From a virus: a stretch of 64,000 bases of DNA. The stretch lies in the IMG/VR virus record IMGVR_UViG_3300042991_000780, positions 1 through 64,000 of that record. One strand, given 5' to 3'. Shown here piece after piece: positions 1,453 to 36,936 of this stretch. The notes under the pieces were generated by a model. That model was not told the DNA's origin. It saw only the letters and a list, made by a program, of their open reading frames with translations, and searched no databases. Made by a program: the position numbers and the translations under genes. Within the stretch, counting starts at the first letter, position 1. The number at the start of each line of letters is the position of its first letter.

Positions 1453-2529
1453 TTATATTCTTCTTATTCTAATTGATGCAAATATTGCACATGCAACACC
1501 GCCACCATTCCAGTAATATGTATCAAAACAATTAGTTCCTGCTGGTAAAATAACGTCTCTTGAAAGTGTGTTAGTGAATGTAAAATTAGTTACATTCATT
1601 TTTAATAAGAAATCACTACCCTGTGTAACACCATTAATCGTAAATCTACCAAATACACAGTTATTTGAACTCGCCTGTCCCACTTGTTCAGTAAAGTCAA
1701 CTTGATATGTACCTGCTGGCATTGATGTACCAGTATATCCCAAATACTTTACTGGTGTTATACTCGTTGTAGTTAAAGTTGTTGCGCATTCACTATAATA
1801 ATAATTAGTACTACCACCTGATGCTAATTTTGCTGTAACTTGTTTTGTCGTTGGATTCCAAAACATTGTATAATCAGTACCAACGGCAACTGTTGGTGTT
1901 GAAACTAAACAAAGTGTTGAACCTAACTTAGTAACACCACTTACATTAAGTGTTGATGCAGCAGTTGTTGCACCCACCAATCTTGTAGTTCCTATTGAAC
2001 AAAGACATGTTGATGCAGAAAGAATTGGTGAAGATACGCTTGTTGAACCTAAAATAACTGGTGATATTACACAAGTTTTACCACAAGTTATTGGTGCTTG
2101 AATACAAGAACTACCACTTATTATTGGTGAATGAATCCAGACGCTACCATAAACCGATGAACCAGATACTTGACCCGATGCATGCAGATTAGACAACGTT
2201 GTTAATGTGCCAGTCATAGTATCACCAGTAACATTTACATATGTTGCAGGTGCTGTTATATCAGTATAGCCAGTAAATGCTCCTATTGTAAGATAATCAT
2301 CATAATTTGGCGGTGATACAATATCATTAACAAATTCTTCAATTGTTTCTTGGCTGTTGTATATTATAGTACCACCACTTTCACGATATAGATATAGTGA
2401 TTGTATTTCGGGAATGAAATAATCAATATATATTTCCCCATATGGTGGAGAAGGAGCAAAACTTGTGTTGCTCCTTTCCATCAATGTATTACTATATCCT
2501 GTGTGATATAAAAAATACTCTGCAGCCAT
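1453..2529 (-). CDS. Putative fibre protein, Cys-rich stalk
   Basis: 358 aa; N-terminal DYFIPEIQSLYLYR shared with 2534..5209; VTGDTMTGTL fibre motif; short SP-I/V-I repeats. Confidence 0.7.
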   Translation of the reverse strand: MAAEYFLYHTGYSNTLMERSNTSFAPSPPYGEIYIDYFIPEIQSLYLYRESGGTIIYNSQETIEEFVNDIVSPPNYDDYLTIGAFTGYTDITAPATYVNVTGDTMTGTLTTLSNLHASGQVSGSSVYGSVWIHSPIISGSSCIQAPITCGKTCVISPVILGSTSVSSPILSASTCLCSIGTTRLVGATTAASTLNVSGVTKLGSTLCLVSTPTVAVGTDYTMFWNPTTKQVTAKLASGGSTNYYYSECATTLTTTSITPVKYLGYTGTSMPAGTYQVDFTEQVGQASSNNCVFGRFTINGVTQGSDFLLKMNVTNFTFTNTLSRDVILPAGTNCFDTYYWNGGGVACAIFASIRIRRI

Positions 2530-2533
2530 TTTA

Positions 2534-7281: not shown

Positions 7282-7566
7282 TTATGCGTCAACTGCGCCT
7301 TTAAATTCAGGTAATGTTTTTGCAAAATCATATGCTTGTTTAATGATATTTTCAGCGTCATTTGAAAGATTTGGTTTAAATTCAAAATCAAAATCTGCAA
7401 TTTTTTCTTTATTTAAATTTGCATTTTTCTTGTTTCTGAAACAATTCATTCTTACACGAATTTTTGATTTACCGCCAACAATACCATTCTCATCCTCAAT
7501 TTTCCAATAACAATCTGTTAAGGTTATGTTGAATTTTTTTATGTATTGATTTTTTAAAAGTGCCAT
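7282..7566 (-). CDS. Hypothetical protein, possible fibre assembly factor
   Basis: 94 aa, directly downstream of the S74 fibre; ends in QAYDFAKTLPEFKGAVDA; has its own upstream GTATTTATA motif. Confidence 0.65.
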   Translation of the reverse strand: MALLKNQYIKKFNITLTDCYWKIEDENGIVGGKSKIRVRMNCFRNKKNANLNKEKIADFDFEFKPNLSNDAENIIKQAYDFAKTLPEFKGAVDA

Positions 7567-7592
7567 TTCTTTCTATTTTATATATAAATACT

Positions 7593-10583: not shown

Positions 10584-10613
10584 TTTATTTCATTTTATAT
10601 AAATACTTCATTC

Positions 10614-12701
10614 TTATCCTATTATTATTACACAATAATTTGTACCTGTTGCTGGTGCTGTATCGAATAAAACACAAACACAATTTGCGTTTACTCTTTG
10701 AACATCAGTATAAACTGTTGCGTATGGCGATGCTGCTTGTATCACTTGAACCATTACAAATTGTTTATTTAATGCATGGTTTACTGTAAATCCAGTATTA
10801 GAACTATTACCAGTTATTAGTAAACTACAACATTTTCCAAGACTTGCTGTTAAACCAGTCACATAACCAGCGTTAACAAGTGAAAGACATGTATAATTCA
10901 AAGAATAATCATCATAATATTCAACACCCCTAAACCCACTCGTACCCTCAATTCTAATATAATCATTACACATGTCGATTATAGTACACGTTGCACCAGA
11001 AACAGCACCAAGGGATAAATTATTTGCATTTAGTCCTACTTGAGAACACATTGTACCTATCTGACTATCAATACTTATTAATTCATTGGTGGCAAGAAAA
11101 ACTGCACAACCATTTGCCGTGATATTACCTATACACGTAGAACCACTTGACCACATACAAATATTTGTAAGCGGACTTGCACCACCATCACAAGTACCAA
11201 TTGTTAAATCCTGACCAGCACCAAGTATGGTTGTTGTTTCGCATAATGTTCCACCAAGAACTACTTGATTCGTACCATTTACTGATAAACCATTTGTTGC
11301 ACCAGTAATTGTAATACTCGTATCACCACTGACATAAGGAACTTTTTTAACTAATCCACCTGTACTCCACACCAAAATGCTATCAGTACAAGCACCATTT
11401 GTAACTCCGGTGATTTTTAATTGACCGTTAATAACTAAACACTGAGCGGTAAAATCACCATAAACTAAAGGTAATGTTGCATTGTTTGCGATATATAATT
11501 TATTTGAACCAGTTTCGTTTTGACCAGCAAGATAACCGATTGCAACATTACCACAACCAGTCTCGTCACTATATAATGCCCTGTATCCTAATGCTGTATT
11601 ATGATTACCACTAATATTATTATAAAGAACTTCTGTACCAACACCAGTATTGCAGTTACCAATAGTTGTATCATTTAACGCCATTGTTCCGATTGCAACA
11701 TTATTACAACCAATTCCAATATTTTTTCCTGCTTCAACACCATAAAATGAGTTATTACATATTGTCGTTGCACTTGCTGGTGTTCCGCAACCTGCAACCG
11801 TTGATCCATTCGTTAAATTTGACCAACCAAGGCAGACTGCTGCTGTTTGTCCGGTTACATAAGCAACATCAGGAATTGAACGTGCTACATAATTACCACA
11901 ATAATTATCAGCATATCTTAAACCACCGTTTGTGCCACCATCTGTTATTGTTGAAACATTATCAAAACCTAAATTAAAAGAATCTAAATTTGTTATCGAT
12001 AAATCATACGCACCACTATTTCCATCAATGATCGTATTGTTACATAATAATCCACCAAGGCAAACGCTAACCGCATCATCAGTTAAACCATTGCAAGCAC
12101 TAAGACTACCACCAGTAGAGCCAGTTGTTATTATATATCCCGGATACGGTAAAACATATCCGCTTGAACTTGATGTTGCAATAAAAACAGATTTACTAAC
12201 ATGAGAATCACCTGTTGGTGCAATGGCTGTCATTAAACCGTCTGTTAAATCACTTAAAAAATACGTACAACTTGTTTGTAAGCCAGTTAATCCGGTTATG
12301 AATCCGGCTTGTGTTACACAGAATGTGTTTATGTTAACACAACAACTTACAACACCAATTACCTCACCATCATATGTACCATCAGCAATTGCTTTATTAT
12401 ATGTACCGCCACTAAATCCAATGATATCACCAGCAACAAATCCATGTGATGATTGTGTGATTTCTTTTGTTATATTTTCACCTGACGATAATGTTATATT
12501 TTGCCATGTTGCAACACCCTGAGAGTCTGACGTTAAAACTTTGCCACTACCGGGATTTGTTAATATTGATAATGTTGCACCACTGTCAAGTGTAAACTCA
12601 CCATAATTGTGTATGATTGTACAACCAGATAAATGTAATGTTTCACCGGAAAGTTGTTCAAATTTACTATCGCTTAGATTGGGTTTTGTATCTACTGCCA
12701 T
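10614..12701 (-). CDS. Modular fibre protein
   Basis: 695 aa; GSGKVLTSDSQGVATWQ, NxAIG repeats and TGATNGL modules; C-terminal VNHALN...VMVQV domain. Confidence 0.75.
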   Translation of the reverse strand: MAVDTKPNLSDSKFEQLSGETLHLSGCTIIHNYGEFTLDSGATLSILTNPGSGKVLTSDSQGVATWQNITLSSGENITKEITQSSHGFVAGDIIGFSGGTYNKAIADGTYDGEVIGVVSCCVNINTFCVTQAGFITGLTGLQTSCTYFLSDLTDGLMTAIAPTGDSHVSKSVFIATSSSSGYVLPYPGYIITTGSTGGSLSACNGLTDDAVSVCLGGLLCNNTIIDGNSGAYDLSITNLDSFNLGFDNVSTITDGGTNGGLRYADNYCGNYVARSIPDVAYVTGQTAAVCLGWSNLTNGSTVAGCGTPASATTICNNSFYGVEAGKNIGIGCNNVAIGTMALNDTTIGNCNTGVGTEVLYNNISGNHNTALGYRALYSDETGCGNVAIGYLAGQNETGSNKLYIANNATLPLVYGDFTAQCLVINGQLKITGVTNGACTDSILVWSTGGLVKKVPYVSGDTSITITGATNGLSVNGTNQVVLGGTLCETTTILGAGQDLTIGTCDGGASPLTNICMWSSGSTCIGNITANGCAVFLATNELISIDSQIGTMCSQVGLNANNLSLGAVSGATCTIIDMCNDYIRIEGTSGFRGVEYYDDYSLNYTCLSLVNAGYVTGLTASLGKCCSLLITGNSSNTGFTVNHALNKQFVMVQVIQAASPYATVYTDVQRVNANCVCVLFDTAPATGTNYCVIIIG

Positions 12702-28636: not shown

Positions 28637-30520
28637 TTAATAATATAAACACATTGGAATACCAGTAGCCGTTGTGGTTATACCGCATGTCACATATACA
28701 TCATACAAACAGTTTGACCAGCAACTCTGTGCAGATGTAACACTAACACTACATGCTGCTGCCCATAAATTACCAACACCACCAATATTACCCGCATTTG
28801 CTGCACAAACCCACCATTTTGTTTTCGCTGCAGTACCAGCAGGTGCTGCAAACCACAAATATTGTGTTGTTGCATTAAATGTAATTGGAGTACTTGCTCC
28901 AACAACAGCAACTGTTTTTATTCCTGCTGCCACATTTGCACCAGTAATTATGTTCGATGCACTCGTGCCCCAATACCAAGGCAAAATACCTGTAACTGAT
29001 GCACTTGCACCTAATGTACTTCCTGATGGCAATGCTGCACAATATTCAGTACCTTTACTACCTAATGCTGGACTACCTGCATCATATCTTGTGCAAACAC
29101 TCCATGTTTTTGTTCCAGCAGATATAATATATGGATTAACTATTTGATTTGCTGATGGTAATACACATGCTTGCCAACCCAATGGCATTCCATCGCCAAC
29201 AAAACAATACGCATTAGCACTACCGCTTCTACTTGATGAGATGCTACAATATTGAGGATTAATGCAACCATCATCAAAATTACCACTAACCTGTTGTGAA
29301 ATCGAACAACCAATTTCCAGATTACCAGAATTACTTAATACAATTCCTGTAAACGGTTCAGTTATACTACCACATAATTCAGGAACTAATAATTGTTCAA
29401 ACAATTCAAAAGCAGTTTTTCCAGTTAATGGTGTTCCTATATCAATTCCACCAACACATACTGATGCTGGTGAACTCAAATTATATGTTCCACCACCAGT
29501 TCCGCCAGTACCACCTGATGAATACACAATTAAAGTGCCCCCAGATGTACTTACAACAGTATCACCACTACCTCTAATTCTCTTAAAATATAATGTTGTT
29601 CCTGTTTGTCCCAAGAAAATATTTTCACCAACACCAGCATTTGCACCTGCTAATACTGCACTTGCGCCTGATAAGTGAATCAATGAATCATTATCATCCC
29701 AAACTTTAATTAAACCAGTTGTATCAGATACTATTGTTCTGAAATGTAAATTATTATGTCCTGCGCATGCAAATGAACGTGCACCTATTGTTAATGTTGT
29801 GCCTGATGTTAAACTACCTATAACTGTATCAACAACGACATACGATCCCACTCCGCAATTATAATAATTTCCTGTTACCCATCCTGTTTCAGTATATACT
29901 TTTGTTGCGCCAGTATAATATATTGATACTATTGGAGATGTTCCAATTTGATCACAAATATATCCATTTGCTAAAATCCAGCCTCTTAATTCACCACTAC
30001 AAATACGTTCATTCCAAATCCATGATTTACAATTTAGATTTGAAATTGTTGGTGGTTTTATATATCCTCTTCTCCCAATGTTATCACTTGGTGGTTCACC
30101 AATACGAATTATACCATTACTATCCCTATAATAATTATTATATAGGGAATAATAATCACCATCAAAATTGTTATCAATTGTGTGATTTATTGGTAATATC
30201 TGTACTGCTGTTGTTCCACTAAAATACCCAAGATTTGTTGCACCAGTTACAAAATCACCTGTTGGTATTACTGAATCGTATTTCTTTTCAACTAAATCAC
30301 TATTATCCACACCTTCCTTAAACCAAAATTCAAGATTTGTCCCACCTGTACTGATAAGTACAGTTAAACCAGTATATCTTACTGCGTCTGATATTGTTGT
30401 CGTTACTTCAGTACAAGAAGAATATGGTAATTGACTACCAGCCAATGTCCTATTACTTAAATAACGTTTATCTAAGGGATTTGGTGCTGCGAGTGTTATA
30501 TTTTCATTAAATTGTGCCAT
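28637..30520 (-). CDS. Structural/fibre protein
   Basis: 627 aa; N-terminus paralogous to 25101..28607 (LAAPNPLDKRY); C-terminal half paralogous to 30531..31646 (VGG..GT.LTG.T, PW.WG.S, Y.WFA.P). Confidence 0.75.
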   Translation of the reverse strand: MAQFNENITLAAPNPLDKRYLSNRTLAGSQLPYSSCTEVTTTISDAVRYTGLTVLISTGGTNLEFWFKEGVDNSDLVEKKYDSVIPTGDFVTGATNLGYFSGTTAVQILPINHTIDNNFDGDYYSLYNNYYRDSNGIIRIGEPPSDNIGRRGYIKPPTISNLNCKSWIWNERICSGELRGWILANGYICDQIGTSPIVSIYYTGATKVYTETGWVTGNYYNCGVGSYVVVDTVIGSLTSGTTLTIGARSFACAGHNNLHFRTIVSDTTGLIKVWDDNDSLIHLSGASAVLAGANAGVGENIFLGQTGTTLYFKRIRGSGDTVVSTSGGTLIVYSSGGTGGTGGGTYNLSSPASVCVGGIDIGTPLTGKTAFELFEQLLVPELCGSITEPFTGIVLSNSGNLEIGCSISQQVSGNFDDGCINPQYCSISSSRSGSANAYCFVGDGMPLGWQACVLPSANQIVNPYIISAGTKTWSVCTRYDAGSPALGSKGTEYCAALPSGSTLGASASVTGILPWYWGTSASNIITGANVAAGIKTVAVVGASTPITFNATTQYLWFAAPAGTAAKTKWWVCAANAGNIGGVGNLWAAACSVSVTSAQSCWSNCLYDVYVTCGITTTATGIPMCLYY

Positions 30521-30530
30521 ATCTTAAATT

Positions 30531-31646
30531 TTAATTACAAAATGTCATACCGTAATTTATACTTGTTTTATAACTGCTAACATAAATTTTATAACAGGTA
30601 CTACCCCAACAAAGTTCCGGTGAAATAATATTTACACATGCTGGATTTCCAAACAATGCACCGGGAATTAAACCATTATTCGATGGATTATTTGCTCCTT
30701 GCCAACAAGTTTTTGAACATGATGCATATGGTGTTGCAAACCAAATATATTCATCAGTAACATTAAAATTATCAACAACAATAGTTGCATTGCCATTATC
30801 AACACATTTACAAGTATATCCACTAATTAATGTTTGACCAGTTGCTGGTGTTGTTGCACTTGAACCCCAAAACCAAGGATACGTACCACATACATATCTT
30901 GAAATTGCTGCTGTCGAACCGGAAGGAAGTGGAGAACACCAACAAGTTCCATCACTTTTCAACACACAACATGTTGCTGCAGAATAAAACACTTGTCCAG
31001 ATACTGATTGACTTGGATTATTAATTGGATATGGTGTAAATGCGATTGAATTAGTTAAACTACTTGTTGTACATGTAACATATGAACCCCAATTACCGTA
31101 ATAATGATAATCAGGTAATCCACTTCTCTTATCGCATGAACCACAATATGCCGGACAAATACATCCTTGATTAAATATTGAACAACCAGTAGCACAAACA
31201 ACGCTACCCATTTCATAATAACCAGTAAATGTTATTGGTAAGCAACTTACTGTAAATGTACTTGATGGTGATGTTAATGTTGGACACACAACTGGTGCTA
31301 ATACTTCTTCAAGAATATTAGCAATTGTTCTTCCAGTAAGTGTTGTTCCGCATACTAATCCACCAACAGTACATGTTGCTGGCGTTCTACAATCATAATA
31401 ACCCGTACTTGTACCACCAGTCGATACTTGCCCCAAAACAATACAACCACTAACATACTTTAAAACATTTTGTTCTGATGCACCACTACTCAAAATAACA
31501 ACCGGAATATTTGTTCCATTTTCATCAGCAAATGTTAAACCACCATCATATTTACTAAATATGGTTGTACCTGATAATGTTAATGTTGTTCCACTTAACT
31601 GCTTAAATTGAGTATTATCTAAATTTGGTCTTGCGAAAAATGGCAT
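30531..31646 (-). CDS. Cys-rich structural protein, first gene of the fibre operon
   Basis: 371 aa; N-terminal RPNLDNTQFKQLSGTTLTLSG shared with 10614 and 12774. Confidence 0.7.
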   Translation of the reverse strand: MPFFARPNLDNTQFKQLSGTTLTLSGTTIFSKYDGGLTFADENGTNIPVVILSSGASEQNVLKYVSGCIVLGQVSTGGTSTGYYDCRTPATCTVGGLVCGTTLTGRTIANILEEVLAPVVCPTLTSPSSTFTVSCLPITFTGYYEMGSVVCATGCSIFNQGCICPAYCGSCDKRSGLPDYHYYGNWGSYVTCTTSSLTNSIAFTPYPINNPSQSVSGQVFYSAATCCVLKSDGTCWCSPLPSGSTAAISRYVCGTYPWFWGSSATTPATGQTLISGYTCKCVDNGNATIVVDNFNVTDEYIWFATPYASCSKTCWQGANNPSNNGLIPGALFGNPACVNIISPELCWGSTCYKIYVSSYKTSINYGMTFCN

Positions 31647-31788
31647 ATTTTTTTAATTTAATTCTCTTATTTTATTTTTCTAAACGGCTAACAACATAAC
31701 CGTCCAGTTAATTACCTAAACCGAACTTTTCTGTTCGGTTTTATTTATAATAAATACAAAAGAATATGATTAAAAACTACCGGAAATA

Positions 31789-31821
31789 AAAAAACCCCGA
31801 AGAATATTTTCTACGGGGTTT
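31789..31821 (-). terminator. Intrinsic terminator closing the Ro60-like/ARPP-1 unit
   Basis: AAAACCCCG/CGGGGTTTT stem plus a T-run on the minus strand. Confidence 0.75.
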
Positions 31822-31845: not shown

Positions 31846-32946
31846 CTAAAGAGTAAACCTATCTTGTTTACGAGCCTTTTTACGAAGTTCGTTTACTGTT
31901 CTGAGAGCATCTGGATCAAATCTTTCCCTTTTAACGACACTCACCATATGGTTGAATTCGTTTTCGGTGATAACCTGACCAATATATCCTTCGGTCTTGA
32001 GTACATAACTCTTTGGTGCTTTACTTGAAGCAGAAGGGTTACCTTCTGTATCAAGAGTTGCTTCAAAGGTCAACTCAAGAAGTTCCTGAATCTTTTCCTG
32101 AACACTTGCGGTCATACCCTGTTTTGTTTTCTTCAATGACCTTTCAAGCAAATCAACAATATTTTCCTGATGCTTTACTTTCAACTCATTATAAGTTTCG
32201 GTAAAATTCTGCATTGTTGATCTATTTTTCAACTCACTGATAATTGCAAGTGAACCATAGCAGTCACGGATCATCAAGTCCCATACCTGTTCTGCGTAAG
32301 TGAATGAAGGGAATTTGTCTATTGCAACAATTTCACCATCAACAAGTACGATGATACCGATAAGATTGCTTGGACGTTCAAAGTGAGCAATAAACTGTTC
32401 AAGTTTCTTGTCGTACTTTTCAAAGTAAACGTTCAAGTAGTTACCAGCGTTTGACTGAGTATCCTGACCCAATTTCTGAATAGCAGGATAAATCCTATGA
32501 TATGAACTTGGCTGTCCAACAGTGTCAAACACCATTTCACGCATGGTTACTGGAAGCATACGGAACTCCTGAGTACCACGAAAATGTCCGGTCTGTCCAC
32601 CCTGAACACAACCAGCATCGTGATAAGTAACGTTACCGTACTTTTCAACGTAACCTGCTTTGGTCATACCATGATTCTGAGCACTCTGCTTGGTCATAAC
32701 AGCCATCTGGGTAGGAAGAATAACTTCCTTATCAGCCTTATTAGCAAAACTAATCTGACCGTAAGAACTGTTACCAGCCTGAACCGAAGTCAATGGATTA
32801 GCAAAACGTTCATCCAAAGAATATTCCTTGTCAGTTGTCAAACATACGATCTGCATGTTCAAAATTGACTGAACGATAATGTTACCGTTTTTGTCTTTGA
32901 CTGGACGGCAACCTTTAAGCAATTCTGTAAATTCTCTTTTATTCAT
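31846..32946 (-). CDS. ARPP-1/DUF6569-like protein
   Basis: Motifs FANKADKEVILP...AQNH...GCVQGGQ and LIGIIVLVDGEIVAIDKFPS resemble the N..v.l..G..Q.R...CVE.G.W and vG.iv.i.G.v...D.F patterns of this family. Confidence 0.65.
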   Translation of the reverse strand: MNKREFTELLKGCRPVKDKNGNIIVQSILNMQIVCLTTDKEYSLDERFANPLTSVQAGNSSYGQISFANKADKEVILPTQMAVMTKQSAQNHGMTKAGYVEKYGNVTYHDAGCVQGGQTGHFRGTQEFRMLPVTMREMVFDTVGQPSSYHRIYPAIQKLGQDTQSNAGNYLNVYFEKYDKKLEQFIAHFERPSNLIGIIVLVDGEIVAIDKFPSFTYAEQVWDLMIRDCYGSLAIISELKNRSTMQNFTETYNELKVKHQENIVDLLERSLKKTKQGMTASVQEKIQELLELTFEATLDTEGNPSASSKAPKSYVLKTEGYIGQVITENEFNHMVSVVKRERFDPDALRTVNELRKKARKQDRFTL

Positions 32947-32957
32947 GATATGAAATA

Positions 32958-34592
32958 TTAAGCATTAATACTAATTTTTTTGTTCCTTTTAACAGGTGCT
33001 GCTTCAAGAGCAAGAACCTGATTTTCAAGCCACCTTTTGGTGTCAATTTCAAGCAACCTTGCGTTGATTTGTGGCTGCAAAGCAACGGGGTTATTTATTG
33101 CCATTGTGACAACTCCTGCACCAAGTTTCCTTACATTAGCACCCATTTCAGCACTCACGATTGGTGAAATTTGAAACATAGGTATATTTCTTCCGGTTTC
33201 TGCCTTCCAAATGTTGATAACTTCATTGGTAAGACCATCGTATGCGTTTTCGTATCCATCGGTTAAGATGAAGATTGCATCATATGGTTTTGAAGCATTT
33301 TCTGCTTTCAAAAGTCCAATAAATGAACTTGCCAAGTCAGTAACCTCACCATCAGTGTATTCAATACTGCAACTATTGGTTGCAGATTTGCTCAATACCC
33401 TTGCGGTAAAGTCAGCAATTGCCTTTGGAGTGTTCTTTGATTCAGCCTGATGACCACTCATTGAATTACTCATATCGACAATAATACCGATATTTGGGTA
33501 GAAGAATCCTACGATTTTCTTCTTGTCTGCAAGTTTGTCAATAGCACCCATTATTTCAGGAGTGAATTTTGTTTCATAACCTGTCTTGTAAAGTGCCAAG
33601 AAATCAGTTGCTTTTTCAAGATCAACATGTTTTTCAACACCCAACTTTGCAGTTGATTTTGTCTGACGAACCTGCTGGTTTACAGAAGTAACCTCAACAT
33701 TTTTCCTAATCAAAGCCTTTGTTGCTTCTCTCTGGATTTTTGTTGACCACATTGAATGATACTGAGGATGCTTTACGCTTGAAATCAAGCCAAGCAATAC
33801 TTCTTCAGGTACTTTCTTTGATGCAGTAATATCAGTCTTTGCTTTCTGATATTCACTCAAAAGAGGGAATACATTAGCATTAAACGTAACACCAGCATCT
33901 TTCTTGAAGATGAAAAGCATAAGTTTGAATGCTTTCATTGGATCACCATTGTAATACCTTAATATGTATTCATTCAAAATCTTCATTTCCTTTTCAGTTC
34001 CAACAACGAATTCACCAACGTTAGCAGCCTTGCCAGTAATTGAAAGCAACACAGATGTCATTTTCTTTCCATATGCGTGCCTCAAAGTATCGGCAATCTT
34101 GTTACGATATTTCATTGCATAGAATTCAAGGTTTTCCTGACCCCAGATGAAGCCAAGCATGATTTTCCTTGACCTTTCGTTGTTGATCTTTGCATTTTTC
34201 AATGAAACAAACAAACGAAGAACATATGGTAGACCACTTTCGCCAAGGTTGTTCAATGCTGAAAGCACTGCCTTATCGCTTAATCCGTTATCATACCAGT
34301 CAATTGGATTAACAATATTGCATGCTCCACCCTTTAAGGTACTTTTAAATTCATTAAACAATACCTCTGATACGAACTGACCAGTCGCACCCTTCTGAGT
34401 TGCAACTATCAACGGGAGTTCCTTTGAAAGTTTATACAAACTCTTAACCTGAGTCTGAATAGCCTTCACCTGTTCGTCACCCTTGTGGTAATAGGTAGCA
34501 CTACCTTTTGCACCACTTGCAATGGTAAGACCATCGATAAGTGACTGCTTTACCTTACTGAGCATGTTGTTTGCTAATACCAACTTTTCCAT
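32958..34592 (-). CDS. Divergent Ro60/Rsr-like (TROVE + vWA) RNA-binding protein
   Basis: 544 aa, close to Ro60 size. N-terminal GSATYY resembles Ro60 GGTYY; the middle is helical and Lys-rich; the C-terminal vWA has MIDAS IVDMSNSM, VTDLAS and DAIFILTDGYE (Ro60: VDVSxSM, GTDCSL, DVFIVFTDNE). The vWA call is firm and the TROVE call is likely. Confidence 0.65.
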   Translation of the reverse strand: MEKLVLANNMLSKVKQSLIDGLTIASGAKGSATYYHKGDEQVKAIQTQVKSLYKLSKELPLIVATQKGATGQFVSEVLFNEFKSTLKGGACNIVNPIDWYDNGLSDKAVLSALNNLGESGLPYVLRLFVSLKNAKINNERSRKIMLGFIWGQENLEFYAMKYRNKIADTLRHAYGKKMTSVLLSITGKAANVGEFVVGTEKEMKILNEYILRYYNGDPMKAFKLMLFIFKKDAGVTFNANVFPLLSEYQKAKTDITASKKVPEEVLLGLISSVKHPQYHSMWSTKIQREATKALIRKNVEVTSVNQQVRQTKSTAKLGVEKHVDLEKATDFLALYKTGYETKFTPEIMGAIDKLADKKKIVGFFYPNIGIIVDMSNSMSGHQAESKNTPKAIADFTARVLSKSATNSCSIEYTDGEVTDLASSFIGLLKAENASKPYDAIFILTDGYENAYDGLTNEVINIWKAETGRNIPMFQISPIVSAEMGANVRKLGAGVVTMAINNPVALQPQINARLLEIDTKRWLENQVLALEAAPVKRNKKISINA

Positions 34593-34632
34593 AATGACAA
34601 TTTTTAATTATTAAAACTTATTTTTCATTGTG

Positions 34633-34663
34633 CAATGTTACACATTATTTTTTAATATCCAAA
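34633..34663 (-). promoter_or_regulatory. Bacteroidota-type sigma70 promoter of the Ro60-like gene
   Basis: TTTG (34663-34660), 19 nt spacer, TAACATTG (34640-34633; one mismatch to TAnnTTTG). Confidence 0.45.
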
Positions 34664-34671
34664 AAAATTAT

Positions 34672-34722
34672 AAAAAAAATCGGGTAAGTCGATAGATTTC
34701 TCAATCAAGTCCCCACCCGATT
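34672..34722 (-). terminator. Terminator-like hairpin ending the ncRNA operon
   Basis: AATCGGGT/ACCCGATT stem enclosing GATT-GAGA-AATC, followed by a long T-run on the minus strand. Confidence 0.6.
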
Positions 34723-34753
34723 CGTTTTTTGGAATAACTCTTCTTCAAATTAA

Positions 34754-34847
34754 AGAAGAAGTGCGGTTGTATTGCCTGTAGTTTGTCTCCCTTCTCACAC
34801 GGGGGAGATTACATTTTTCAATTACTGTAAACACAGCCAGTTCTTCC
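34754..34847 (-). ncRNA. Y-RNA-like structured RNA, copy R1 (GC-rich hairpin insert)
   Basis: GGAAGAA-CT-GGCTGTGTTT-ACAGTAA...ACAGG-CAATACAACC-GCAC-TTCTTCT; insert hairpin TCTCCC/GGGAGA. Confidence 0.7.
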
Positions 34848-34927
34848 ATAAAAATTTATATTTTTTGAAAAAAATGCCACACACCTGTGACCAAAAAACC
34901 ATTTTTAACCGTCAAATGTTAGGATTC

Positions 34928-34997
34928 CAAGTGGGGATTTGGATTAATATTACTTGATTTATCAAATTTGTCTGCAATCCGCATATCGCTCCACTTG
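34928..34997 (-). ncRNA. Additional structured RNA candidate
   Basis: Nested stems CAAGTGG/CCACTTG, GGATT/AATCC and TTGAT/ATCAA, lying between R1 and R2. Confidence 0.4.
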
Positions 34998-35006
34998 TAT
35001 AATTTC

Positions 35007-35144
35007 GGGAATAATTTAAAAGTATTTGTTGTTTTTAATCAAAGTTTAAGAGACTTCTGACTTAACCGCTTGTCTATTTTTCAATTTTGGCTGAAAAAGA
35101 TGGATTCGAACCACCGTATTACTGTAAACACTTTTCGTTTTCCC
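35007..35144 (-). ncRNA. Y-RNA-like RNA R2 containing a circularly permuted tRNA-Lys(CUU)
   Basis: GGGAAAA-CG-AAAAGTGTTT-ACAGTAA, then T-arm, acceptor hairpin with GCCA in its loop, D-arm and anticodon arm, then ACAAC-AAATACTTTT...TTCCC. Confidence 0.8.
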
Positions 35145-35173
35145 TCAATATTTTAAAGAACTTCAATAAGTTT

Positions 35174-35253
35174 AGAAGAAATTCGTTGGTCTTGTTGTCG
35201 TTATTAGTTTGATTTCAAGTCAAATTGTTACTGTAAAAACCACCAGTTCTTCT
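35174..35253 (-). ncRNA. Y-RNA-like RNA R3 with an isolated anticodon-like stem-loop (UGA, Ser)
   Basis: AGAAGAA-CT-GGTGGTTTTT-ACAGTAA...TTTGA-CTTGAAA-TCAAA...ACAAC-AAGACCAAC-GAAT-TTCTTCT. Confidence 0.7.
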
Positions 35254-35303
35254 TTATATTTTAAATTTGTAGCAGGTTATTGTTTCAAATTTGAAATTTC
35301 AAA

Positions 35304-35312
35304 GTATTTATA
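35304..35312 (+). promoter_or_regulatory. GTATTTATA putative phage late-promoter motif (plus-strand copy)
   Basis: 13 nt upstream of the ATG of the only credible plus-strand gene; the same motif precedes more than 10 minus-strand genes. Confidence 0.6.
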
Positions 35313-35325
35313 ATAAATAGTACTT

Positions 35326-36003
35326 ATGAAACCAAATTATACCGAATCTGAATTTGACACAGCAACATCTACAAGTTTATTATCTTGTTTTTGTTATAAT
35401 TGTAACACCCTTTTTAATGTAATGAAGAAAAATATTGTACAGGAATTAAAGCATAAAAGAGGAAGAATAAAATTTTGTTCAAAGAAGTGTCATGATATTT
35501 ATCAATCAAATCAAATCTCCGTTATTTGTAATAATTGCGGTAAAACATTTACTAAAATAGCATCTGAAATTAAAACAAATAATTTTTGTTCAAATTCATG
35601 CGCTGCAATATATAATAACACACATAAAACAAAAGGCAATCGTAGGTCTAAACTTGAAACATATCTTGAAACACAACTCGCTGCACAATTTCCAAATTTA
35701 GAAATATTATTCAACGATAAAAAAACAATTAATTCCGAACTGGATATTTACATACCCAGACTTCACCTTGCTTTTGAACTTAATGGTATTTTTCATTACG
35801 AACCTATCTATGGTCAAAATAAATTGAGTCAAATTCAAAATAATGATAATCGTAAATTTCAAGCCTGTTTAGAACAAGAAATTGAATTGTGTATTATTGA
35901 TGTTTCACATCAAAAATATTTTAAAGAAAACACTTCAAAAAAGTATTTAGACATTCTCATTACAATTATAAACAATAAGTCAATGAACATGTTAAACATT
36001 TAG
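35326..36003 (+). CDS. Zn-finger + Vsr/PD-(D/E)XK-like putative homing endonuclease
   Basis: CxxC...FCSxxC zinc motifs twice; ELDIYIP...AFELNGIFHY nuclease motif; antisense to the ncRNA operon. Confidence 0.75.
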   Translation: MKPNYTESEFDTATSTSLLSCFCYNCNTLFNVMKKNIVQELKHKRGRIKFCSKKCHDIYQSNQISVICNNCGKTFTKIASEIKTNNFCSNSCAAIYNNTHKTKGNRRSKLETYLETQLAAQFPNLEILFNDKKTINSELDIYIPRLHLAFELNGIFHYEPIYGQNKLSQIQNNDNRKFQACLEQEIELCIIDVSHQKYFKENTSKKYLDILITIINNKSMNMLNI

Positions 36004-36059
36004 TCAATCTATCGATTGTGCAGTAATTACCACGTGCAGGTAGTTTAACTTTAATTACT

Positions 36060-36133
36060 TAGCGGGAGATGGATTCGAACCACCGACCTTAACGTTATGA
36101 GCGTCACGAGCTAACCACTGCTACTACCCCGCA
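36060..36133 (-). tRNA. tRNA-Met(CAU)
   Basis: TGCGGGG-TA-GTAGC-AGTGGTTA-GCTC-G-TGACG-CTCATAA-CGTTA-AGGTC-GGTGG-TTCGAAT-CCATC-TCCCGCT-A; no encoded CCA. Confidence 0.85.
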
Positions 36134-36573
36134 ATATGTTTTTCCAATAAATCCCATGCTTCTCTATATTCATGAGATTTTGGCTTTCTCTGTCTGGATA
36201 CTTTTTCATGTAATGTTATTGAACCCGCAAATGAATTAAAAATATTAACAGGTACAACATAAAACACTTTTAGTTCTGAAATGAAAATTATTGCAAAATT
36301 AAAATCATTATTGGAATATTTTTCTCTTTTCATCACACGTCTATTTGTTTTGGTTCTTCTCACATCAATCAAATAAACTCCTTCTTCTTTTGATAACCAC
36401 GCTGACTTAACTTGTATCTTAATAAATTTATTATTAATAACAATGACCAAATCATATGGTAATCTATCACCTACCGGAATTAAAACATCCCATCCCAATT
36501 GAAGTGCTTTTAATTGTACTTCAATCTCCGCAATATCACCTTTCATTTTAGTATCCATAATCTCAAAGAACAT
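36124..36573 (-). CDS. PD-(D/E)XK homing endonuclease, I-Ssp6803I-like; real start probably 36558
   Basis: KGDIAE...GWDVLIPVGDRLPYDLVI...IKIQVKS motif; the last codons and stop overlap the tRNA-Met 5' end; the first ATG lies in a boxA-like site. Confidence 0.8.
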   Translation of the reverse strand: MFFEIMDTKMKGDIAEIEVQLKALQLGWDVLIPVGDRLPYDLVIVINNKFIKIQVKSAWLSKEEGVYLIDVRRTKTNRRVMKREKYSNNDFNFAIIFISELKVFYVVPVNIFNSFAGSITLHEKVSRQRKPKSHEYREAWDLLEKHIAG

Positions 36574-36586
36574 TTAATAAGATAAA

Positions 36587-36718
36587 AAAGGAAAATTTGT
36601 TTGTTATTTCTGTTATAAACAATGATGGAATTGAACCACCAACATTCTGCTTGACGTGCAAACACTCTAACCAGTTGAGTTAATTGTAATTTACTGTAAT
36701 AACAACACCGTTTCCTTT
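36587..36718 (-). ncRNA. Y-RNA-like RNA R4 containing a near-complete tRNA-Asp(GUC)-like body
   Basis: AAGGAAA-CG-GTGTTGTTATT-ACAGTAA, cloverleaf at 36687-36619, then ACAGA-AATAACAAAC-AAAT-TTTCCTT. Confidence 0.75.
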
Positions 36719-36723
36719 TTTTG

Positions 36724-36810
36724 TGGGGAGAACAGGAATCGAACCTGTAATCAATTGTGTTTAAAACAATTTGCTTTACCTTATTTACTGTAAACACTTC
36801 AAGTTCTCCC
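36724..36810 (-). ncRNA. Y-RNA-like/tRNA hybrid RNA R5
   Basis: GGGAGAA-CT-TGAAGTGTTT-ACAGTAA...TAAACAC...ACAGG-TTCGATT-CCTGT-TCTCCCC-A; the terminal helix directly follows a canonical T-arm. Confidence 0.7.
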
Positions 36811-36873
36811 TTACGGGAGCAATGAGATAGTATTTTCGTTATTTTGATTTGCTATCTCCCCATTTAAAAGTTT

Positions 36874-36885
36874 GTTCAAAGAACA
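36874..36885 (-). promoter_or_regulatory. boxA-like antitermination element (other copies at 36563-36571, 35980-35988, 35153-35161)
   Basis: TGTTCTTTGAAC just downstream of the predicted transcription start; GTTCTTTGA, GTTCATTGA and GTTCTTTAA recur along the operon. Confidence 0.55.
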
Positions 36886-36904
36886 TTTTGTCATTCAGAC
36901 GTTG

Positions 36905-36936
36905 CAAATATAAAACACCTTTTTTAATTGTGCAAG
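36905..36936 (-). promoter_or_regulatory. Bacteroidota-type promoter of the ncRNA operon
   Basis: CTTG (36936-36933), 20 nt spacer, TATATTTG (36912-36905), an exact TAnnTTTG match. Confidence 0.7.

What the first reader, a model, noticed from the sequence alone, without database searches (positions are those of the whole stretch)
31846..36936. Candidate new system: Ro60-like protein + ARPP-1 + operon of scaffold RNAs each displaying a different tRNA-derived cargo
Seen: one locus with a promoter, boxA-like sites, five related structured RNAs, tRNA-Met and a terminator, followed by a TROVE/vWA-like gene, an ARPP-1-like gene and a second terminator. Known: Ro60/Rsr binds the terminal stem of Y RNAs encoded beside it, and bacterial YrlA RNAs carry a tRNA-mimic domain lacking a true anticodon loop. 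Different here: the conserved core (AAC...UUACAGUAA) is not the canonical Y motif I recall, and the cargo varies in topology and keeps anticodon-like loops (Lys CUU, Ser UGA, Asp GUC, possibly Leu UAA). Inference: a modular RNP in which the protein holds a constant handle and displays interchangeable tRNA mimics. These could be decoys or inhibitors of host anticodon nucleases and tRNA-modifying toxins, or adaptors for RNA repair/decay, with ARPP-1 as partner.
Basis: partly seen in the sequence, partly recalled or inferred. Interest (0 to 1): 0.95.

Follow-up and report, generated by a model that had tools for sequence, protein, structure and literature searches.

The report
Phage Ro60-like particle with tRNA-mimic RNAs
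A fragment of a giant phage encodes five small RNAs that mount tRNA look-alikes on one shared stem, next to a very diverged cousin of the RNA-surveillance ring protein Ro60 and an enzyme-like partner (ARPP-1); the same three-part module sits beside tRNA gene arrays in many bacteria and looks like an undescribed branch of the Ro60/Y-RNA machines.

Summary
On the minus strand, 36,912-31,786 holds a promoter, five RNAs that share one handle, tRNA-Met, two inserted homing-endonuclease genes, a terminator, a 544-aa gene, an ARPP-1 gene and a second terminator. No sequence profile recognises the 544-aa protein. Its confident model matches only Ro60/Rsr over its full length (Z 18.3), and it has an invariant MIDAS motif. 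ARPP-1 follows it in every phage locus with enough sequence and in about 50 of 62 bacterial loci, and a complex model docks it on the MIDAS face (0.61, best control 0.00). The handle (closing helix, GGRAACU, second helix, U(U/A)CAG ... AAC) covaries. A model built only from bacterial RNAs hits window RNA R2 end to end (45 bits, E 6e-11) and 48 of 57 phage loci. Cargoes are tRNA-like in several circular permutations, with hypervariable anticodon loops. The RNAs fail Rfam YrlA (22.9 bits; cut-off 69). In bacteria the module lies at tRNA gene arrays. Best reading: a new, widespread variant of the Ro60/Y-RNA particle tied to tRNA conflicts or repair. RNA binding, expression and function are untested. 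This scan found the same module earlier on other DNA (at least 22 genomes). I found no paper describing it.

The parts
36905..36934 (-). Promoter-like region of the RNA operon (TTGCAC ... TATATTTG, Bacteroidota-type TAnnTTTG box at 36912-36905)
   Evidence: Sequence and promoter scan row 36934-36907. Assignment by consensus only; not tested.
36876..36886 (-). boxA-like element ATGTTCTTTGA, first copy
   Evidence: GTTCTTTRA is enriched about 45-fold in the RNA regions of 59 related loci. Function (antitermination or processing) is inferred.
36724..36861 (-). RNA R1 (class A): tRNA-like RNA with a 7-bp acceptor (GGGGAGA/UCUCCCC) and a T arm; the handle is inserted as a closed hairpin in the D-arm region
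   Evidence: z -3.9. Partial Rfam tRNA match of 26.5 bits. Partial hit of model R2, 23.9 bits. 11 distinct orthologues in related phages.
36585..36720 (-). RNA R2 (class B): terminal handle enclosing a complete D-anticodon-T tRNA-like body (anticodon loop with GUC); the universal member of the family
   Evidence: Rfam tRNA match of 44.5 bits on the cargo. The bacteria-only model R2 matches end to end at 45.4 bits, E 6e-11. Orthologues in 48 of 57 phage loci.
36563..36573 (-). boxA-like element ATGTTCTTTGA, second copy
36124..36573 (-). Inserted PD-(D/E)XK_5 endonuclease gene (149 aa); its stop overlaps the 5' end of tRNA-Met
   Evidence: PF11645, E 4e-42. Present in only 2 related loci, L035 and L071.
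36059..36134 (-). tRNA-Met (CAU), without an encoded CCA
   Evidence: ARAGORN; Rfam 33.2 bits. A tRNA-Met is present in nearly all related loci.
35326..36003 (+). Inserted HNH-type homing-endonuclease-like gene (225 aa) on the opposite strand
   Evidence: phrog_559, E 2.9e-14. Only weak, partial matches (23-28% identity) in 3 relatives; none in the rest.
35175..35252 (-). RNA R3 (class C): handle plus a single 5-bp/7-nt hairpin
   Evidence: Alignment A6 of 30 RNAs: 92% of cells paired against 39-57% in the slid controls; pair 12-71 is GC 15 / AU 13. Model R1 scores 80.6 bits.
35007..35144 (-). RNA R4 (class D): handle plus a circularly permuted tRNA (T arm, closed 7-bp acceptor with G-CCA in its loop, D arm, anticodon arm with CUU); the handle sits at the variable-loop position
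   Evidence: Alignment A3. 24 of 34 orthologues carry N-CCA in the loop; 19 distinct anticodon loops.
34872..35000 (-). Unassigned structured stretch and a terminator-like hairpin (34891-34876) between R4 and R5
   Evidence: Fold and terminator scan. Not analysed further.
34755..34847 (-). RNA R5 (class E): handle plus a G+C-rich hairpin
   Evidence: Model R1 scores 39.3 bits, E 5e-6, with both handle strands aligned. 9 distinct orthologues.
34672..34723 (-). Intrinsic terminator after the RNA array (long hairpin and a U run)
   Evidence: Sequence. Also found after class E in related phages, where stem and loop bases differ but the hairpin persists (by eye; pairs not counted).
32958..34592 (-). 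Ro60-like protein (544 aa): alpha-helical ring plus a C-terminal vWA domain with a MIDAS motif (D373, S375, S377, D445)
   Evidence: AF2 model with pLDDT 92.6. The Foldseek top 12 are all Ro60/Rsr. VIA Z 18.3 over 408 residues. MIDAS residues D373, S377 and D445 are invariant and S375 is at least 90% conserved in 70 homologues. No Pfam, PHROGs, NCBIfam or PADLOC match at the cut-offs used, apart from one NCBIfam chance-level row.
31846..32946 (-). ARPP-1 protein (366 aa), predicted enzymatic partner
   Evidence: PF20208 at 52.8 bits. Invariant residues include Q26, Q90, H92, C113, Q118, R136 and E190. It lies immediately downstream in all phage loci and most bacterial loci. Complex score 0.61 against 0.00 for the best control.
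31786..31821 (-). Intrinsic terminator after ARPP-1 (CCCCG ... CGGGG plus a U run)
   Evidence: Sequence.

Best explanation
The locus encodes a diverged Ro60/Y-RNA-type ribonucleoprotein. SHOWN: The 544-aa protein has a Ro60 fold (ring plus vWA). Five RNAs made from the operon just upstream share one handle: closing helix h1, an internal loop with GGRAACU, helix h2, and the junction U(U/A)CAG on the 5' side with AAC on the 3' side. The handle carries interchangeable cargoes. These are a whole tRNA-like body (R2), a circularly permuted tRNA with CCA in a closed acceptor loop (R4), a tRNA-like RNA with the handle inserted as a hairpin (R1), and simple hairpins (R3, R5). The gene pair and handle RNAs recur together in phages and in several bacterial phyla, mostly at tRNA gene arrays. 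INFERRED: The Ro60-like ring binds the constant handle, as Ro60 binds the stem of Y RNAs. ARPP-1, a predicted enzyme with invariant Cys, Gln and His residues, docks on the MIDAS face of the vWA domain. The tRNA-like cargoes, whose anticodon loops change rapidly between close relatives, act as tRNA mimics. They would bring tRNA-directed factors (anticodon nucleases, modification or processing enzymes) or damaged tRNAs to the particle. The module would thereby protect or police the tRNA pool during phage-host conflict.
For: Fold: AF2 pLDDT 92.6, pTM 0.91. The Foldseek top 12 are all Ro60/Rsr, including the Thermus phage phiLo Ro60. VIA Z is 18.3-12.1 for the ten Ro60 entries, while the next rows (vWA domain only) are below 9. 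The MIDAS DxSxS and DG motifs are conserved in 70 homologues of 20-77% identity: D373, S377, D445 and G446 invariant, S375 in at least 90%.

Partner: ARPP-1 lies directly downstream in every phage locus with enough 3' sequence (65-92% identity) and in about 50 of 62 bacterial loci (24-34% identity). Both proteins are far better conserved than their neighbours. Complex prediction gave 0.61 (runs 0.59, 0.61, 0.64) with a best control of 0.00. The runs agree in at least 78% of contacts and the partner pLDDT is at least 83. That mark was reached by 58 of 80 solved complexes and 2 of 110 mismatched pairs. The interface includes MIDAS residues 375-377 and 445-454 and ARPP residues 184-192, which contain the invariant E190.

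RNA: five TTACAGTAA motifs are clustered on one strand. There are 114 distinct motif instances upstream of the gene, on its strand, in 73 related loci. Handle helices covary: class C pair 12-71 is GC 15 / AU 13, with 92% of cells paired against 39-57% in slid controls. In 22 bacterial RNAs, 20 of 28 RNAalifold pairs show compensatory changes. A covariance model built only from bacterial RNAs matches window R2 end to end (45.4 bits, E 6e-11). It finds full-length matches in 43 of 61 bacterial loci and 48 of 57 phage loci, all on the strand of the gene.

Mimicry rather than decoding: the acceptor-like strand UUACAG is constant whatever the anticodon. In nine near-identical Pirellulales RNAs, 5 of 7 anticodon-loop columns vary against 12 of 111 elsewhere (Fisher p = 6e-4). 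Orthologous class B cargoes in related phages carry about 17 different anticodons. Class D has 19 distinct loops in 32 RNAs, and 13 of the 32 lack U33.

Precedent: Rsr with YrlA/YrlB, where the RNAs lie within 4 kb on the same strand and carry a tRNA-like domain (PMC4201824). Phage phiLo Ro60 binds Yrl1 and Yrl2 (PMC12135203).
Against: The Ro60 relationship rests on a predicted structure only. No sequence profile links the protein to TROVE. A strong terminator separates the RNA array from the protein genes, so they may be separate transcription units. R2-type cargoes score as genuine tRNAs (44-56 bits). Most class D RNAs encode CCA after the acceptor strand (24 of 34), which would also fit production of functional tRNAs. 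ARPP-1 has no structural relative (best Z 3.6), so its chemistry is unknown. The complex prediction is a model's own confidence, made with my own alignments, not a measurement.
Confidence: 0.68

Rival explanations
1. The handle is a maturation signal, not a stable protein-binding stem. The RNAs would be precursors of working tRNAs encoded in unusual forms: permuted (R4), interrupted (R1), or with a paired leader and trailer (R2). The handle would be cut away, or would hold two halves together as a split tRNA. The Ro60-like/ARPP-1 pair would act as chaperone and processing or joining enzyme.
For: R4-type RNAs have a perfect 7-bp acceptor hairpin, and 24 of 34 have N-CCA in its loop. R2-type cargoes exceed the Rfam tRNA cut-off and ARAGORN calls them tRNAs, including suppressor anticodons UCA and UUA. 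The module sits in true tRNA arrays. Permuted and split tRNA genes are known in algae and archaea (own knowledge).
Against: R3 and R5, and the second RNA of Planctomycetota loci, carry the same handle but no tRNA body. In bacterial RNAs the handle itself replaces the acceptor stem; it has conserved mismatches and no CCA. The same acceptor-like sequence serves about 17 anticodons, which is hard to reconcile with aminoacylation identity. 13 of 32 class D loops lack U33. Related complete phages already carry 36-65 ordinary tRNA genes elsewhere.
Confidence: 0.17
2. The RNAs are ordinary or decaying tRNA genes of a tRNA cluster. The gene pair works on cellular or array tRNAs in general and has no specific link to the handle RNAs. 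The shared motif would reflect common descent by local duplication.
For: tRNA arrays duplicate and decay readily, and archaeal tRNA clusters often carry a TROVE gene (20 of 29 clusters; PMC6333295). Folding energies of single RNAs are mostly unremarkable.
Against: The handle is conserved with compensatory changes from phages to Planctomycetota, Myxococcota, Bacteroidota and a gammaproteobacterium, while the proteins have diverged to 20-30% identity. Its position is fixed just upstream of the gene on the same strand, with 2-3 copies per locus. Decay would not preserve this.
Confidence: 0.08
3. The repeated element belongs to mobile DNA. It would be target or recognition sites of the homing endonucleases inserted in the array, or attachment-type repeats, rather than functional RNA.
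For: Two homing-endonuclease-like genes lie inside the array.
Against: Relatives lack an endonuclease gene at this place (PD-(D/E)XK_5 in 2 loci; weak HNH-like matches in 3) yet nearly all (71 of 74) keep the handle motif. Covariation preserves RNA pairing, not DNA sequence. All copies are on one strand.
Confidence: 0.03

Closest known systems
Bacterial Ro60 (Rsr) with YrlA/YrlB or Yrn1 Y RNAs (Salmonella rsr-yrlBA-rtcBA, D. radiodurans, mycobacteriophages; PMC4201824)
   Same: A ring plus vWA protein. Small RNAs are encoded within a few kb on the same strand. Each has a terminal stem plus a variable module, and at least one has a tRNA-like domain. A second RNA lacks the tRNA-like domain, as YrlB does. 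There is a link to tRNA damage and repair.
   Different: No detectable sequence similarity to TROVE. The handle motif is GGRAACU ... U(U/A)CAG instead of GNCGAAN0-1G. Rfam YrlA scores only 22.9-34 bits against a cut-off of 69. The cargo keeps an anticodon arm and occurs in at least three permutations. The obligate neighbour is ARPP-1, not RtcB/RtcA. The module is embedded in tRNA arrays.
Thermus phage phiLo Ro60 with Yrl1/Yrl2 (PDB 9KOP, 9L5Y; PMC12135203)
   Same: A phage-encoded Ro60 homologue with phage-encoded Y-like RNAs. It is a structural match to the model (Z 14.4-14.7).
   Different: The paper's abstract describes a canonical doughnut-shaped Ro60 homologue that binds two Y-like RNAs and host PNPase; it reports no ARPP partner and no array of handle RNAs with tRNA cargoes (abstract only read).
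TROVE genes in archaeal tRNA gene clusters (PMC6333295), and ROT/TROVE proteins noted in some jumbo phages (PMC7824862)
   Same: A Ro-type protein is associated with tRNA gene clusters and with jumbo phages.
   Different: Those reports concern annotated TROVE-domain proteins. The passages I read mention no handle RNA family and no ARPP partner.
ARPP in ARG/rhodanese-phosphatase conflict systems (PMC9503650)
   Same: The same Pfam family (PF20208), with conserved Cys and Gln residues suggesting catalysis on ribose-containing substrates.
   Different: The published contexts are ARG systems, HIRAN, WYL and a deacetylase. A Ro60-like partner and tRNA-like RNAs are a new context.
Circularly permuted and split tRNA genes (red alga Cyanidioschyzon, Nanoarchaeum; own knowledge)
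   Same: In R4 the 3' half (T arm, acceptor 3' strand, CCA) comes before the 5' half (acceptor 5' strand, D arm, anticodon arm).
   Different: No bulge-helix-bulge splice motif is evident. The ends are held by the conserved handle that is shared with non-tRNA cargoes. The context is bacterial or phage.

Membership tests
Ro60/Rsr (TROVE + vWA) proteins | Ring of alpha-helical (HEAT-like) repeats followed by a vWA domain | tested here: met
   AF2 model with pLDDT 92.6. VIA Z 18.3, rmsd 4.3 A, 408 residues aligned to 2i91_A; all ten top entries are Ro60/Rsr. Foldseek E 5e-7, TM 0.40-0.51.
Ro60/Rsr (TROVE + vWA) proteins | MIDAS motif (DxSxS ... D) in the vWA domain | tested here: met
   D373, S377, D445 and G446 are invariant and S375 is at least 90% conserved in 70 homologues.
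Ro60/Rsr (TROVE + vWA) proteins | Match to the Pfam TROVE profile (PF05731), or sequence similarity to solved Ro60 proteins | tested here: not met
   TROVE was matched by none of the 70 family members at E <= 0.01. phmmer and a profile search against PDB sequences found no Ro60.
Ro60/Rsr (TROVE + vWA) proteins | Binds the stem of Y RNAs and the 3' ends of misfolded RNAs | not testable with these tools
   Needs EMSA, RIP or a structure.
YrlA (Rfam RF02553) | Score at or above the gathering cut-off of 69 bits | tested here: not met
   Best in the window is 22.9 bits. In six bacterial loci the best YrlA rows were 26-34 bits; the row overlapping a handle RNA (L117 4409-4464) scored 26.1 and covered the tRNA-like part only.
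YrlA (Rfam RF02553) | GNCGAAN0-1G motif near the 5' end (PMC4201824) | tested here: not met
   The handle consensus is GGRAACU-N5-h2-U(U/A)CAG.
YrlA (Rfam RF02553) | tRNA-like domain in T - closed acceptor - D order, with the Ro stem in place of the anticodon stem | tested here: inconclusive
   R4 has T, closed acceptor and D, but also an anticodon arm, and the handle sits at the variable loop. Myxococcota RNAs have anticodon - T - acceptor - D order. R2 and Planctomycetota RNAs have the normal D - anticodon - T order.
YrlA (Rfam RF02553) | Encoded within about 4 kb of the Ro gene on the same strand | tested here: met
ARPP-1 (Pfam PF20208) | Score above the Pfam cut-off, with conserved Cys and Gln | tested here: met
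   52.8 bits against a cut-off of 27. C113, Q26, Q90 and Q118 are invariant in 40 sequences.
tRNA (Rfam RF00005) | Cloverleaf score above 29 bits | tested here: met
   R2 cargo scores 44.5 bits and tRNA-Met 33.2 bits; R1 is below the cut-off at 26.5.
tRNA (Rfam RF00005) | Processed to a free acceptor end, aminoacylated and used in decoding | not testable with these tools
   Indirect signs against it: a constant acceptor-like strand for many anticodons, no CCA in R2-type RNAs, and U33 missing in 13 of 32 class D loops.
Circularly permuted tRNA genes | 3' half upstream of the 5' half, with acceptor ends joined by a short linker | tested here: met
   R4 and 33 orthologues.
Circularly permuted tRNA genes | Maturation through a circular intermediate at a bulge-helix-bulge motif | not tested
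   No RNA data were available.

The most novel reading that the evidence does not exclude
The particle is a programmable, tRNA-anticodon-directed machine. The Ro60-like ring holds the handle and ARPP-1 on its MIDAS site supplies catalysis. The exchangeable, fast-evolving anticodon loop of the cargo sets the specificity. It could do so as bait for particular anticodon nucleases or tRNA-modifying toxins, or as a short guide that pairs with complementary loops. This would be the first Ro60-family particle with its own enzymatic subunit, and a general accessory of tRNA arrays in bacteria and giant phages.
Probability: 0.25. Interest if true: 0.92.

Novelty: new variant of a known kind. Interest (0 to 1): 0.8.

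Why it matters
Ro60/Y-RNA particles are conserved from bacteria to humans. Yet the roles of the tRNA-like module of bacterial Y RNAs and of the MIDAS site of Ro60 remain open. This branch offers a natural experiment with three parts:
- a constant handle;
- cargoes reduced or rearranged in informative ways, with the anticodon loop as the hot spot of change;
- a dedicated enzyme-like partner predicted to sit on the MIDAS face.

It is invisible to current protein and RNA family libraries, so it is unannotated in hundreds of phage and bacterial genomes. Its RNAs are probably being called as tRNAs or missed. It also gives tRNA gene arrays a conserved protein and RNA accessory. That bears on the idea that such arrays are weapons or shields in tRNA-centred phage-host conflicts.

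Tried and rejected
- **Sequence libraries.** Pfam, PHROGs, NCBIfam, PADLOC and PDB sequence searches gave nothing for the 544-aa protein. The one NCBIfam row (a sigma-70 family, 20 bits against a cut-off of 188) is chance.
- **ARPP-1 fold.** No solved relative was found (Foldseek best E 0.03; VIA wide best Z 3.6). This is no evidence of a new fold.
- **Single-sequence folding energies.** Not informative except for R1.
- **Model R1 (built from class C).** It found only R3 and R5 in the window, so a handle model from one class does not generalise. Model R2, built from bacterial RNAs, did.
- **My greedy helix finder.** It was noisy in A/U-rich phage sequence: controls reached 30-60% of the observed counts. 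I rely on the alignment-based counts instead.
- **A local GAC/GUC hairpin inside the handle.** Considered and dropped, because L096 and L078 do not support it.
- **Literature.** The NAR 2016 paper on RNA repair systems (Burroughs and Aravind) is not held, so I could not check whether it mentions this association. Searches for Ro60 or TROVE together with tRNA arrays found only the archaeal report.
- **DNA search.** blastn of the region against phage records matched only tRNA-Met.

Full report
**Setting.** The window is part of a 95-kb fragment of a giant phage, about 31% complete. All long ORFs are on the minus strand. Relatives are IMG/VR contigs of up to 365 kb. The finding lies between a DnaB-like helicase gene (38949-37042) and two unannotated genes.

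**Observation.** Read on the minus strand, the region holds the following, in order:
- a TAnnTTTG-type promoter box (36912-36905);
- RNA R1 (36861-36724);
- RNA R2 (36720-36585);
- a PD-(D/E)XK_5 endonuclease gene (36573-36124; PF11645, E 4e-42);
- tRNA-Met (36134-36059);
- an HNH-like gene on the other strand (35326-36003; phrog_559);
- RNA R3 (35252-35175);
- RNA R4 (35144-35007);
- an unassigned structured stretch;
- RNA R5 (34847-34755);
- a strong terminator (34723-34672);
- a 544-aa gene (34592-32958);
- an ARPP-1 gene (32946-31846; PF20208, E 4.8e-14);
- a second terminator (31821-31786).

TTACAGTAA occurs five times in 34822-36793, all on this strand, against 1.5 expected in the whole window. 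T-arm-like GGTTCRANTCC occurs four times against 0.09 expected. The boxA-like ATGTTCTTTGA occurs twice. That is not significant here, but GTTCTTTRA is about 45-fold enriched in the RNA regions of 59 related loci.

**The protein.** No profile library recognises it. It has 324 relatives at E <= 0.001 among 50%-identity representatives. An alignment of 70 relatives (20-77% identity) shows conserved DxSxS (D373 and S377 invariant, S375 in at least 90%) and invariant D445-G446, a vWA MIDAS signature. A few members weakly hit vWA profiles; none hits TROVE. The AlphaFold model is confident (pLDDT 92.6, pTM 0.91). In the PDB the 12 best Foldseek matches are all Ro60/Rsr, over the full length. VIA gives Z 18.3 (408 residues, rmsd 4.3 A) to Xenopus Ro60, and the ten Ro60/TROVE entries score 12.1-18.3. 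These include human Ro60 and the D. radiodurans and Thermus phage phiLo proteins. The next rows are vWA-only matches below Z 9. So this is a Ro60-type ring protein that has diverged beyond sequence recognition.

**The partner.** ARPP-1 follows the gene directly in every one of the 73 phage loci that has enough 3' sequence (65-92% identity). The pair is much better conserved than its neighbours, which share 29-63% identity. Distant homologues of the Ro60-like protein occur in true bacterial chromosomes and MAGs. Examples are Rhodopirellula, Stieleria, Novipirellula, Minicystis, Haliangium, Saprospiraceae and Pseudohongiella. There too an ARPP gene follows in about 50 of 62 loci (24-34% identity).

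The ARPP alignment has invariant Q26, Y62, G63, N69, Q90, H92, C113, Q118, R136, E190 and R227. This fits the published prediction of an enzyme with a conserved Cys and Gln acting on ribose-containing substrates. The published contexts do not include Ro60 (PMC9503650). Its model (pLDDT 87) has no solved relative.

A complex prediction supports binding. The score is 0.61 (runs 0.59, 0.61, 0.64) against a best control of 0.00. The runs agree in at least 78% of contacts, and the partner pLDDT is at least 83. That mark was reached by 58 of 80 solved complexes and 2 of 110 mismatched pairs, and the counts hold only roughly because my own alignments were used. The interface lies on the MIDAS face (375-377, 414-429, 445-466) and on ARPP residues 18-29, 184-192 and 244-278, which include the invariant E190. 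An acidic ligand on a MIDAS site is the classic mode of vWA binding (established knowledge). Here it is a prediction.

**The RNAs in phages.** Upstream of the gene and on its strand, T[TA]ACAGTAA occurs in nearly all 73 loci. The 114 distinct instances share a 5' consensus: G(G/A)A(A/G)AAC, 5-7 nt, GU(G/U)U, then UUACAGUAA. They fall into five orthologous classes that correspond to R1-R5.
- **Class C (R3).** 30 RNAs give 92% paired cells against 39-57% in the slid controls. One helix-2 pair switches GC 15 / AU 13.
- **Class D (R4).** This is a circularly permuted tRNA: T arm, a 7-bp acceptor closed by a loop, D arm and anticodon arm. The loop carries N-CCA in 24 of 34 RNAs. The handle sits at the variable-loop position. 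Acceptor and T stems covary. There are 19 different 7-nt anticodon loops in 32 RNAs, and 13 of those lack U33.
- **Class B (R2).** The handle encloses a whole tRNA-like body. ARAGORN reads its orthologues as about 17 different tRNAs, including UCA and UUA anticodons, always next to a constant tRNA-Met.
- **Class A (R1).** The handle is a closed hairpin with its strands in swapped order, inserted into a tRNA-like RNA with a normal acceptor.

**The RNAs in bacteria.** The 5 kb upstream of the bacterial genes often holds large tRNA arrays: up to 20-34 T-arm motifs per locus and many Rfam tRNA hits of 50-70 bits. Between the last tRNAs and the gene lie 2-3 RNAs with the same architecture. The order is h1, GG(R)AACU, 5 nt, h2, U(U/A/C)CAG, cargo, AAC(A), h2', about 9 nt, h1'.

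In Planctomycetota one RNA carries a D - anticodon - T body in which UUACAG(C) takes the place of the acceptor 5' strand. A second RNA carries only hairpins, as YrlB does. In Myxococcota the body is permuted as anticodon - T - closed acceptor - D.

RNAalifold on 22 bacterial RNAs predicts h1, a middle helix, h2 and the three tRNA arms. 20 of the 28 pairs show compensatory changes; for example h1 column 6/119 is AU 11 / GC 11.

A covariance model built from these bacterial RNAs alone gave these results:
- it matches window R2 end to end (45.4 bits, E 6e-11), R3 in full (19.7 bits) and R1 in part;
- it finds full-length matches in 43 of 61 bacterial loci, most of which were not in the training set;
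- it finds full-length matches in 48 of 57 phage loci at 42-73 bits;
- every hit is on the strand of the gene.

The handle RNA and the gene pair have therefore travelled together across phyla.

**Not YrlA, not in Rfam.** YrlA reaches only 22.9 bits in the window and 26-34 bits in the six bacterial loci scanned (26.1 bits where a row overlaps a handle RNA), against a cut-off of 69. It aligns only the tRNA-like part. The published YrlA motif GNCGAAN0-1G (PMC4201824) is absent.

**Hot spot.** Nine Pirellulales RNAs of 118 nt differ at 17 columns. Five of these are consecutive in the anticodon loop (positions 34-38). That is 5 of 7 loop columns against 12 of 111 elsewhere (Fisher p = 6e-4). Together with the anticodon turnover in classes B and D, this points to diversifying selection on the loop while the handle and body stay fixed.

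**Interpretation.**
- *Shown:* the fold, the gene pairing, the RNA family and its covariation, and the co-occurrence with tRNA arrays.
- *Inferred:* the ring binds the handle, ARPP-1 binds the MIDAS site, and the cargoes are mimics.

I favour a Ro60/Y-RNA-type particle that works on or around tRNAs in conflict or repair (0.68). Three things support it: the precedent of Rsr with YrlA/YrlB and of phiLo Ro60, the non-tRNA cargoes on the same handle, and a constant acceptor-like strand that serves many anticodons. The main rival (0.17) is that the handle is a maturation device for oddly encoded but functional tRNAs. The CCA in the R4 loop and the tRNA-grade scores of R2-type cargoes keep that rival alive. 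Complete relatives carry 36-65 ordinary tRNA genes about 100 kb away, and RtcB in one of three. The locus is therefore not their main tRNA supply.

**Novelty.** Ro/TROVE proteins have been reported in some jumbo phages and in archaeal tRNA clusters (PMC7824862; PMC6333295). A phage Ro60 with Y-like RNAs has been characterised (PMC12135203). I found no description of this diverged branch, its handle RNA family or its ARPP-1 partner. One key paper could not be read. Earlier reports of this scan describe the same module in at least 22 other genomes and reach the same reading. I treated them as leads and re-derived the evidence here.

**Limits.** There are no expression or binding data. The fold and the complex are predictions. 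The promoter, boxA and terminator assignments rest on consensus.

Noticed in passing
window 36124-36573 (-): A PD-(D/E)XK_5 (PF11645) endonuclease gene sits inside the RNA operon, and its stop codon overlaps the first bases of tRNA-Met. Only 2 of the related loci (L035, L071) have it, so it looks like a recent homing-endonuclease insertion.
   Followed up: partly
window 35326-36003 (+): An HNH/zinc-finger homing-endonuclease-like gene lies on the opposite strand, between tRNA-Met and R3. In most relatives R3-type RNAs follow tRNA-Met directly.
   Followed up: partly
window 34872-35000 (-): A structured stretch with an 8-bp closing stem and a terminator-like hairpin lies between R4 and R5. It lacks the handle motif. 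Its role is unknown.
   Followed up: no
L001-L073, RNA regions; window 36876-36886 and 36563-36573: GUUCUUURA elements punctuate the RNA arrays (0.42 per kb against 0.009 per kb elsewhere on the same strand). They could be boxA-like antitermination sites or processing sites.
   Followed up: partly
L105 1412-1850 and 7575-7793: A Bacteroidales MAG contig of 204 kb, possibly a phage, carries the Ro60-like/ARPP pair. Nearby it also has a GOLLD RNA (165 bits), a group I intron and many tRNAs.
   Followed up: no
L074 (JBAZIW010000001.1) and L032: A 362,763-bp contig filed as a Candidatus Paceibacterota MAG has the same length as the IMG/VR giant-phage contig of L032, the same gene order around the locus and equal ARPP identity (74.3%). 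It is probably a phage genome binned as a bacterium; I did not align the two sequences.
   Followed up: partly
G001-G003 (complete relatives, 349-363 kb): Related complete phages carry 36-65 tRNA genes in arrays about 100 kb from the Ro60-like locus and on the other strand. One of the three encodes RtcB.
   Followed up: partly
window 28637-31646 (-): The two genes downstream of ARPP-1 (371 and 627 aa) have no family match. They are syntenic in most relatives but evolve fast (29-63% identity).
   Followed up: no
L078 (Minicystis rosea chromosome) 1661-4800 and 7500-10900: In Myxococcota the gene pair sits in the middle of the tRNA array, with tRNA genes on both sides. Some array members score better as tRNA-Sec-like or tmRNA-like fragments.
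   Followed up: no
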